Shown here: one piece after another, positions 24,879-25,488 of the stretch
How the letters are laid out: every line of letters begins with the position of its first letter
Numbering within the stretch: position 1 is the stretch's first letter
Assembly (NCBI GenBank): GCA_951406725.2
Contig: OX597837.1
Location: 31,868,001-31,932,000, forward strand
Length of the DNA: 64,000 nt
Reading direction: 5' to 3'
Origin: Octopus vulgaris
Lineage: Eukaryota
The notes under the pieces: model-generated
Told to the model about the DNA's origin: nothing
Database searches by the model: none
The model's input: only the letters and a program-made list of their open reading frames with translations
Position numbers and translations under genes: made by a program

Positions 24879-24882
<4 letters not shown>

Positions 24883-25486
24883 AAAATGGTAAATAATTTT
24901 CCTGTGGTTTTTTATGTAACCAACAATTATTTACCGGTAAATTTCGGTATGTAAATACGACAAAATAATTGTCAAGACCTTTGTAAGGTTCAGTATATAG
25001 TAAAGAAAAATAAGTTGGCTAGCAGCAAGCTGTTTCGCCTCATACCGAAGGAATTAGAAATGGCAGTCAAAGACCGTTTTTTCCATTTCTATAAGTGGAG
25101 GTTCCATTACGATTACCCAGAAGGCGCGCATGGCAGAATTCTGGAGGGAAAATTTACGTTCCCAGTCGTTTACTTGGTTTTAACATCTGCGCACTTCCCC
25201 CCACTATCTGATGTCGCTGGGTCAGAAGTGAGGGTTGGTGGCATTTGATAAAGCTAACGAATATAGCGCTGATGAAGGAATTCAAACTCACCCTTTTTTT
25301 TATATGTTTGTGATCCAGAAACACCGTGTTCGCTATTAACGGTAGGTGACTGAATTCGTGTATTTGCCACTCCGGTTTTGTGTATGTGAGCCGCAAGGGC
25401 CTTCGTTTTTGGAACCTCCACTTATAGAAATGGAAAAAACGGTCTTTGACTGCAATTTCTAATTCCTTCGGTATGAGGCGAAACTG

Positions 25487-25488
<2 letters not shown>
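24879..25488 (+). mobile_element. Copy-1-specific insert in (TA)n: Penelope-like remnant with inverted terminal duplication
   Basis: 75-bp inverted arms at 25032-25106 and 25410-25484. Absent from the corresponding (TA)n at 44529-44650. Contains a hammerhead motif. Confidence 0.7.
25263..25336 (+). ncRNA. Type I hammerhead ribozyme candidate, canonical core
   Basis: Stem I atagcg/cgctat; CUGAUGA at 25269-25275; interrupted stem II gga..caaac/gtttg..tcc; GAAA at 25318-25321; stem III ACA-ccg-UGU; GUU triplet with predicted cleavage at 25330/25331. Confidence 0.72.

What the first reader, a model, noticed from the sequence alone, without database searches (positions are those of the whole stretch)
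24879..25488. Polymorphic insert with a complete canonical hammerhead between 75-bp inverted arms
Seen: ~610 bp present only in copy 1, inside the (TA)n next to the transposon. It contains atagcg-CUGAUGA-[stem II]-GAAACA-ccg-UGUU-cgctat, so all core nucleotides and three stems are present. The final 75 bp are repeated in inverted form upstream. It looks like a MITE at first sight, but the asymmetry (150 extra bp on the left) and the ribozyme fit a Penelope-type inverted-tail insertion better. Presence/absence suggests recent activity.
Basis: partly seen in the sequence, partly recalled or inferred. Interest (0 to 1): 0.72.

Follow-up and report, generated by a model that had tools for sequence, protein, structure and literature searches.

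The report
Two-armed 554-base hammerhead retrozyme insertion
This insert is one young, cut-short and partly inverted copy of a 554-base non-coding repeat that carries a predicted self-cutting RNA and is scattered through this animal genome; the kind is known (retrozymes), but the ends of its copies suggest that a Penelope-type retrotransposon enzyme likely copies the RNA from two fixed start points, one for each cut DNA strand.

Summary
Observation confirmed, with corrections. The insert (24875-25488) is absent from the second copy of a 19-kb duplicated stretch and has 79-bp inverted arms. It is two head-to-head pieces of a 554-bp tandem monomer: positions 80-311 inverted, then 330-554 and 1-159. 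Two probes each match over 500 places. It is not a MITE: 41 of 41 two-armed copies have different junctions. Outer ends cluster at monomer 192 and 311; of 22 two-armed copies ending at these sites, 21 have one of each. A Neptune-like RT/GIY-YIG family here leaves the same footprint, but no autonomous partner with matching repeats was found. The hammerhead is conserved and its stem I covaries across sister families (67 of 70 cells), but it is not canonical: bulged bases on both sides of G10.1-C11.1, GUU site, 3-bp near-palindromic stem III, predicted to fold as a dimer. Cleavage is untested. The two window copies meet at a scaffold gap, so they are probably alleles and the insert probably heterozygous (untested). 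Verdict: new member of the metazoan non-LTR retrozymes. Earlier notes of this scan report the same pattern for other families in this genome.

The parts
24820..24879 (.). (TA)30, left part of the target microsatellite
   Evidence: copy 2 has an empty (TA)34 at 44529-44596
24875..25106 (-). Inverted arm: monomer positions 80 to 311 (numbered from the ribozyme cut); its 3' end faces outward at start site S2 (311); the last few bases are ambiguous with the TA run
24875..25027 (-).
24943..24951 (-). 3' half (monomer about 235-243) of a 9-bp stem that brackets S1 in the intact monomer and is kept in sister families
25028..25106 (-). Left 79-bp inverted arm (monomer 80-159): overlap of the two pieces, not a TIR
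25102..25106 (.). 5-bp microhomology at the head-to-head junction (monomer 80 joined to 330)
   Evidence: junction 40-mer found in no other locus held
25102..25488 (+). Forward arm: monomer 330-554 then 1-159 (or 167 with a 7-base slip); ends at a minor TA site short of S1
25263..25336 (+). Type I hammerhead variant: stem I 25263-25268/25331-25336, core CUGAUGA 25269-25275, bulged A 25276, stem II 25277-25316 with internal loop, bulged A 25317, GAAA 25318-25321, stem III 25321-25329, U17 25330; predicted cut 25330/25331
25410..25488 (+). Right 79-bp inverted arm (monomer 80-159)
25467..25475 (+). 5' half (monomer 139-147) of the conserved 9-bp stem
25488..25565 (.). (TA)39, right part of the target microsatellite; a target-site duplication cannot be read
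26485..26584 (.). 100-N scaffold gap lying exactly between the end of copy 1 (matches 45770) and the start of copy 2 (matches 7966)
44529..44596 (.). Empty site in copy 2: (TA)34 beside the same Tc1/mariner end

Best explanation
The insert is two head-to-head fragments of a 554-bp non-coding tandem repeat with a hammerhead motif (a non-LTR retrozyme), likely written into a (TA)n microsatellite by the reverse transcriptase and endonuclease of a Penelope-like element. Shown: monomer length and tandem arrays, hundreds of dispersed young copies, TA targets, 3' ends at two fixed monomer positions 119 bases apart, one of each in two-armed copies, variable 5' ends, conserved and covarying ribozyme. 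Inferred: tandem arrays are transcribed; paired hammerheads cut the RNA to unit length, part of which is circularised; the enzyme nicks both strands of (TA)n; each nick primes reverse transcription at an internal site of the RNA, one at 311 and the other at 192 or a nearby TA-rich site (159-167 in the window); the two cDNAs stop at variable points and are joined by microhomology. This gives an inverted repeat with a tail on one side.
For: Monomer 554-556 bp in tandem, 40% GC, longest Met-ORF 66 aa. 527 and 582 probe matches, controls 0. Census of 91 motif-selected loci: 43 single arms, 41 head-to-head pairs, 7 complex, 0 tail-to-tail; 110 of 143 arms end at 184-193 or 303-317; of 22 pairs with both ends at these sites 21 are mixed, 1 S1/S1, 0 S2/S2 (binomial p 5e-6). 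TA runs on both sides in 72 of 91, one side in 18 (background 15% per side). 31 of 110 arms exceed one monomer. 12 of 56 S2 arms stop at 170-205, i.e. at S1, against 3, 0 and 1 in neighbouring bins; the two 5' ends lie within 30 bases in 12 of 41 pairs against 5.8 permuted, p 0.005. Arms of one locus differ by 1.1% against a median 6.7% to other loci; 5 of 39 loci share variants seen in no other arm; the window's arms share a variant carried by 10 of 110 other arms. Sister family B (616-644 bp, about 63-67% identical) has the same two end sites. A Neptune-like family (781 aa, RT + C-terminal GIY-YIG, CX4CxxC linker) ends at two sites 40 bases apart in (TA)n (19 and 8 of 28 ends), one of each in 2 of 2 two-armed copies. 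This matches the published Penelope-type inverted copy plus tail (10.1101/2021.04.23.441226, passages) and the two internal RT start sites and two-strand nicking shown in vitro (PMC11167929). Ribozyme: 12 fixed core positions vary 1.4% on average against 4.8% for the monomer, while N7, H17, U4/C4 and the base after A9 vary freely; stem I is paired in 67 of 70 cells over 14 representatives, shuffles mean 46.7, maximum 58; two copies co-fold as a double hammerhead (-31.4 kcal/mol); the monomer folds at z -4.7 linear and -4.9 circular. Weak hints: 5' ends within -6..+9 of the cut in 7 of 110 arms against 3.0 expected, p 0.025 and 3 of 25 pieces of family B; single 585-base contigs (554 + 31, as a closed loop would give) in 2 of 8 laid runs, from two studies, while a large run shatters into 579 short pieces; these runs are only guessed to be RNA.
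Against: No cleavage, circle or transcript was measured. No autonomous element shares the monomer's sequence: 0 of 52 GIY-YIG C-terminus records (some the same locus, 4 with under 250 bases downstream) carry the family motifs, and the one HHR next to a PLE ORF (L179) is a neighbouring insertion. The tail is 119 bases, against 30-40 in published PLEs and 40 in the local Neptune-like family. The window's forward arm ends at 159-167, not at S1, and 19 of 41 pairs have one end at neither main site. Within-locus divergence (1.1%) equals that to the single nearest other locus (1.1%), and arms can be homogenised by gene conversion. The monomeric ribozyme is not the best fold, and U17 can pair with A14 in the dimer model. 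The cut-site window was chosen after looking. 8 of 9 predicted Xenopus retrozyme dimers did not cleave in vitro (10.64898/2026.07.22.740005). A 585-base loop contig also arises from a homogeneous tandem array.
Confidence: 0.78

Rival explanations
1. The monomer is simply the pseudo-LTR of an autonomous Penelope-like element not yet found, and the insert is an ordinary 5'-truncated, inverted copy of it.
For: The footprint is that of PLEs, and most PLE insertions are truncated to the terminal repeat (10.64898/2026.07.22.740005). The ribozyme has PLE-type traits: a base between A9 and G10.1, long stem II, palindromic stem III (PMC4209133). The GIY-YIG search scored only 150 of 6136 candidates.
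Against: Arms run up to 4.5 monomers head to tail with no coding sequence between units. In 91 census loci no arm runs from the monomer into an RT or GIY-YIG frame; the few PLE hits are separate insertions beyond TA runs.
Confidence: 0.1
2. The two arms come from two independent priming events on two RNA molecules, or from fold-back during second-strand synthesis, with the same enzyme but no shared template; the ribozyme is a passenger that rarely cuts.
For: Most S2 arms read through S1 and overlap the other arm, which one linear template cannot give at the same time. In the purified Poseidon system hammerhead mutants insert normally and uncut RNA is the main substrate (PMC11167929). 61 rare variants are unshared between arms against 33 shared.
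Against: Independent priming predicts about half of pairs with like ends; 1 of 22 seen. S2 arms pile up at S1 and the 5' ends of paired arms are correlated. The core is under selection across subfamilies and families.
Confidence: 0.08
3. A MITE or foldback element moved by a DNA transposase (for example the neighbouring Tc1/mariner, which also targets TA).
For: 79-bp inverted repeats, TA target, adjacent Tc1/mariner.
Against: The left arm is internal; 41 of 41 two-armed copies have distinct junctions and the window's junction occurs in no other locus held; 43 of 91 copies have one arm only; tandem monomers and ragged 5' ends.
Confidence: 0.02
4. A satellite or minisatellite spread by DNA recombination through TA repeats, with a chance hammerhead-like sequence.
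For: Tandem arrays occur near a contig end (C13); no Rfam match.
Against: Polarised fixed 3' ends with variable 5' ends; dispersal over many chromosomes; stem covariation; strand-specific folding (-152 sense, -137 antisense).
Confidence: 0.02

Closest known systems
Metazoan non-LTR retrozymes (coral, mussel, axolotl: PMC7229834, parts 2-4 of 6 read; vertebrates: bioRxiv 10.64898/2026.07.22.740005, parts 1-3 of 5 read)
   Same: Non-coding tandem monomers, each with a type I hammerhead; under 50% GC; no LTR; self-paired monomer; weak stem III pointing to dimer cleavage; PLEs in the same genome.
   Different: 554 bp, longer than the 170-400 nt given for invertebrates (within the 51-972 bp of the 2026 preprint). 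The ribozyme is of the PLE-like bulged type, not the canonical one. The parts read describe no head-to-head two-armed insertions with two fixed start sites. Cleavage and circles are untested here.
EN+ Penelope-like elements, Neptune/Poseidon/Naiad insertion footprint (10.1101/2021.04.23.441226, passages; PMC11167929, parts 1-2 of 4 read)
   Same: Partial tandems, inverted 5'-truncated copy at the 5' end, tail on one end, TA-microsatellite targets, two internal RT start sites whose interval is the tail.
   Different: No ORF; tail 119 bases against 30-40; no sequence match to the local Neptune-like repeats.
PLE-type hammerhead variants (PMC4209133, parts 1-2 of 4 and one supplement passage read)
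   Same: Unpaired base between A9 and G10.1, G10.1-C11.1 pair, long stem II, short stem I, palindromic 15.2-16.2 region.
   Different: An extra A between C11.1 and G12, invariant in 89 of 89 arms, is not in the published consensus line; stem III is 3 bp, not absent; the site is GUU in the window (GUC in older subfamilies).
L1 twin-priming inversions (recalled, not from a call)
   Same: Head-to-head pieces with both primed ends facing outward and a microhomology junction.
   Different: Here the two pieces overlap in sequence, both start at fixed internal sites, there is no poly(A), and arms can exceed one unit.

Membership tests
Metazoan non-LTR retrozyme | [quoted passage not shown] | tested here: met
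   554-556 bp spacing of cut sites; core in each unit
Metazoan non-LTR retrozyme | [quoted passage not shown] | tested here: met
   Met by the family (L025 three, L030 four); the window copy itself has one
Metazoan non-LTR retrozyme | No protein coding, no LTR, GC under 50% | tested here: met
   Longest Met-ORF 66 aa; GC 0.40; PBS and PPT were not searched for
Metazoan non-LTR retrozyme | Stable self-paired monomer fold | tested here: met
   z -4.68 linear, -4.9 circular, 0 shuffles as good
Metazoan non-LTR retrozyme | Transcribed; linear and circular unit-length RNA | tested here: inconclusive
   585-base contigs in 2 of 8 laid runs whose RNA status is a guess
Metazoan non-LTR retrozyme | Self-cleavage in vitro | not testable with these tools
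   Only folding and conservation
Metazoan non-LTR retrozyme | Homology to the pseudo-LTR of a resident PLE (proposed origin, not universal) | tested here: inconclusive
   None found among sampled PLE families; sampling was 150 of 6136 candidates
Canonical type I hammerhead | Core C3 U4 G5 A6 N7 G8 A9, G12 A13 A14 A15.1, U16.1 H17 | tested here: met
Canonical type I hammerhead | Stem II closes directly on the core; 4-bp stem II with loop 1/loop 2 contacts | tested here: not met
   Unpaired bases at 25276 and 25317; long interrupted stem II; no Rfam match; tertiary contacts not modelled
PLE-type hammerhead variant | Base between 9 and 10.1, G10.1-C11.1, palindromic 15.2-16.2, dimer-compatible | tested here: met
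   published traits in PMC4209133
Autonomous EN+ Penelope-like element | ORF with PLE RT and GIY-YIG between pseudo-LTRs | tested here: not met
Penelope-type insertion footprint | Inverted 5'-truncated copy, tail on one end, two 3' end sites, microsatellite target | tested here: met
   tail 119 bases rather than 30-40
MITE | Fixed TIR-bounded ends and uniform length across copies | tested here: not met
   41 of 41 distinct junctions, 43 single-armed copies

The most novel reading that the evidence does not exclude
A clade of cephalopod-type retrozymes carries its own RNA landing pad: a conserved 9-bp stem brackets two start sites 119 bases apart, so that a dimeric Penelope-like enzyme copies one RNA circle from both nicked strands at once, colliding at the upstream site in some insertions and rolling past unit length in others; the clade's hammerhead is an undescribed variant with a bulged base on both sides of stem II that is active only as a dimer, and the window copy is a heterozygous, still segregating product of this reaction.
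Probability: 0.35. Interest if true: 0.65.

Novelty: new member of a known kind. Interest (0 to 1): 0.42.

Why it matters
How animal retrozymes get back into the genome has been proposed (PLE enzymes, circular templates) but, in the papers read, not shown. This family gives a countable genomic footprint and exact coordinates for a test: two start sites, a candidate recognition stem, a ribozyme variant, and a resident intact Neptune-like ORF for the published in vitro assay. It also explains the Penelope 'inverted copy plus tail' as two different start sites used by the two cut strands. For annotation, such inserts look like MITEs and are missed by Rfam. The single window copy is an ordinary truncated member.

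Tried and rejected
Rfam: no match at gathering score in the window; only chance snoRNA hits at E up to 10 on the insert. Repeat finder on the whole window was swamped by microsatellites. Run search: no RNA holder listed; all laid runs were contigs, so starts, ends, strand and level could not be read; one run laid nothing and others covered only part of the stretch. Autonomous partner: GIY-YIG search and 16 widened loci, shared-motif pattern and variant-core pattern found no PLE whose repeat matches; weak hits in L038, L057 and L068 are other non-coding inserts beyond TA runs; L179 looked like a ribozyme upstream of a PLE ORF, but no other scored locus joins the two parts, so it was rejected; L227, L268 and L091 are likewise neighbours. 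Allele versus tandem duplication could not be tested: no raw reads, and TA flanks break contigs. One energy evaluation (9-base duplex) was malformed and is ignored. Rows left out: the first 30 loci are biased towards the window's shape and were kept out of the census; 10 of them were added only to the arm comparison; 10 of 27 listed C4 clusters were fetched; homopolymer positions were masked. Literature: searches listed no paper on cephalopod retrozymes or on two-site priming of retrozymes; an octopus repeat annotation has no occurrence of ribozyme, hammerhead or retrozyme in its main text (PMC13282606, passages). The supplement of PMC7229834, one file of PMC4209133 and the bioRxiv supplements were not seen and could hold cephalopod examples or the extra-A variant.

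Full report
1. Observation. The window holds a 19-kb stretch twice (7966-26484 and 26585-45770). Window 18819-24879 aligns to 38478-44588 and 25488-25875 to 44533-44920, leaving about 610 bp only in copy 1, between (TA)30 and (TA)39 where copy 2 has (TA)34, next to a Tc1/mariner-type element. The inverted arms are 25028-25106 and 25410-25488, 79 bp with 2 mismatches. The genome is 2.8 Gb; its repeats look octopus-like (recalled; earlier notes of the scan say the same).

2. What the insert is. A search of the own genome gave 182 matches from 40 scored of 952 candidates. Several loci are head-to-tail arrays with ribozyme cut sites 554-556 bp apart. Numbered from the cut, the window insert is monomer 80-311 on the minus strand joined through a 5-base microhomology to 330-554 and 1-159 on the plus strand. 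The inverted arms are the overlap (80-159) and the extra 150 bp are positions 160-311. Two probes match 527 and 582 places with 0 in reversed controls; these count units, not insertions. The monomer is 40% GC, has no Met-ORF above 66 aa, and folds at z -4.7 or -4.9 as a circle.

3. Insertion footprint. The census used 91 loci picked by exact match to either probe: all listed places on C1-C3 and 10 of 27 on C4. There are 43 single arms, 41 head-to-head pairs, 7 complex loci and no tail-to-tail pair. 110 of 143 arms end at monomer 184-193 (S1) or 303-317 (S2). Among the 41 pairs, 21 are S1+S2, 1 is S1+S1, none is S2+S2, 15 are S2+other and 4 are S1+other (p 5e-6 for 21 of 22). One probe lies in the tail and one upstream of S1, so both like-ended classes could have been caught. 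TA runs flank both sides in 72 loci and one side in 18. All 41 junctions differ, and the window's junction is in no other locus held, which rules out a MITE. The window is of the S2+other class, as is L004/L255 (end 167). 12 of 56 S2 arms stop at S1, and paired arms stop within 30 bases of each other in 12 of 41 cases against 5.8 permuted. In 39 pairs with overlap (29 census, 10 from the first set) arms differ by 1.1%, against a median 6.7% to other loci but also 1.1% to the nearest other locus; 5 loci share variants seen nowhere else. This favours one template per insertion without excluding gene conversion. 31 of 110 arms are longer than one monomer.

4. Sister families and the likely enzyme. 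Loose ends of laid contigs led to family B (727 pattern matches; units of 616-644 bp, about 63-67% identical), which ends at the homologous two sites. A core pattern finds 852 places in several more families. Seven representatives keep a complementary 9-base pair of motifs that brackets S1 and pairs in the predicted fold. The genome holds intact 781-aa ORFs with RT and C-terminal GIY-YIG and a CX4CxxC linker, the Neptune/Nematis trait named in 10.1101/2021.04.23.441226 (passages). Their repeats end in (TA)n at two sites 40 bases apart (19 and 8 of 28 ends), one of each in both two-armed copies seen. That paper describes the inverted copy and one-sided tail; PMC11167929 shows that a purified PLE protein nicks and extends both strands and starts at two internal RNA sites whose interval is the tail. 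No PLE repeat matching this monomer was found, so the partner is unidentified.

5. The ribozyme. It is a type I hammerhead with a 6-bp stem I, an interrupted long stem II, a 3-bp near-palindromic stem III and a GUU site. One unpaired base follows A9, a published PLE trait (PMC4209133); a second unpaired A precedes G12, invariant in 89 of 89 arms and absent from the published consensus line. For the sister families this A was part of the search pattern, so it is not an independent count. Across census arms the 12 fixed core positions are nearly invariant while N7, H17, position 4 and the first bulge are polymorphic. Stem I is paired in 67 of 70 cells over 14 related representatives against 46.7 in column shuffles (the families are related and the stem III end was chosen to fit, so this is not a clean p-value). 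Alone the motif misfolds (-9.0 against -15.2 kcal/mol; stem probabilities 0.53, 0.34, 0.10 in the whole forward arm, near 0 in 25240-25360), but two copies co-fold as a double hammerhead. Rfam does not detect it. Hints of use in cells are weak: 7 of 110 5' ends near the cut against 3.0 expected, 3 of 25 in family B, and single 585-base contigs in 2 of 8 laid runs that are only guessed to be RNA, while a large run gives 579 short pieces. That 585 = 554 + 31 marks a closed loop is my inference, and a uniform tandem array would give the same.

6. Polymorphic? The 100-N gap at 26485-26584 lies exactly between the end of copy 1 and the start of copy 2, and long unique blocks differ by 0.3-0.9%. That is what two uncollapsed alleles scaffolded in a row look like (inference, about 0.7), which would make the insert heterozygous; a true recent tandem duplication remains possible. 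The insert has 3 private substitutions in 480 scored positions, so it is young on either reading.

7. Comparison and verdict. The family meets the sequence criteria of metazoan non-LTR retrozymes (PMC7229834; 10.64898/2026.07.22.740005); cleavage and circles are untested, and 8 of 9 predicted dimers in the latter study did not cleave. It works like a Penelope-type insertion but is not an autonomous PLE. My searches listed no paper on cephalopod retrozymes or two-site priming of retrozymes; unseen supplements may bear on this. Earlier notes of this scan describe the same two-armed, two-start pattern for 360-, 490- and 535-base families in this genome; none matched this sequence or place. I had reached the two-site reading before the look-up; the notes prompted the one-template test. 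Verdict: a real, young retrozyme insertion, new member of a known kind, with a useful and testable insertion footprint. Interest 0.42.

Noticed in passing
window 7966-26484 and 26585-45770: The 19-kb duplication has the scaffold gap exactly at its junction and 0.3-0.9% divergence in long unique blocks: probably a false tandem duplication of two alleles.
   Followed up: partly
window 23554-24819 and 43262-44528: Young Tc1/mariner-type element (DUF4817/HTH, 307-325 aa frames, both ending early); the two copies differ at 11 of 1266 bases.
   Followed up: partly
L107-L126 (G000:C1): Sister retrozyme family B, 616-644 bp units, 727 pattern matches, same ribozyme variant with a long AT-rich stem II and the same two end sites; L117 has both arms starting at the cut site.
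   Followed up: partly
L157-L196, L277-L306: At least five more non-coding families (about 500-560 bp) share the doubly bulged hammerhead, the motif upstream of S1 and the tail stem; a clade of retrozymes with a common scaffold.
   Followed up: partly
L061:5288-5672, L063, L037: Abundant Neptune-like family with intact 781-aa RT/GIY-YIG ORF, an upstream ORF of up to 479 aa with no Pfam match (378-aa part scanned), and a U3-A8 hammerhead variant with a palindromic stem III in its repeat; 40-base tail.
   Followed up: partly
L061 repeat end versus monomer 118-130: A short GC-GC-ATTT-C-like run lies upstream of the first end site in both the Neptune-like repeat and the retrozymes; may be chance, or a shared recognition signal.
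   Followed up: no
L091:1447-2054: A short family arm (177-311) sits 12 bases of TA from the tail end of a two-armed Neptune-like repeat: nested insertion into the same microsatellite or a template switch.
   Followed up: partly
L077, L078, L089, L100, L153: Older subfamilies carry C4 (CCGAUGA), a perfect palindrome in stem III and often a GUC site; about half of the census arms have C4.
   Followed up: partly
L025 and L030 (G000:C13:266-302 kb): The longest arrays (3-4.5 units) lie near a contig end in inverted orientation and start at monomer 3, next to the cut site; they may be one event duplicated.
   Followed up: no
window 14475-15008 and 15576-16091 (and copies at 34287, 35327): Fragments of two non-LTR retrotransposon ORFs (endonuclease-like and RT C-terminal pieces; family assignment recalled, not tested).
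   Followed up: no
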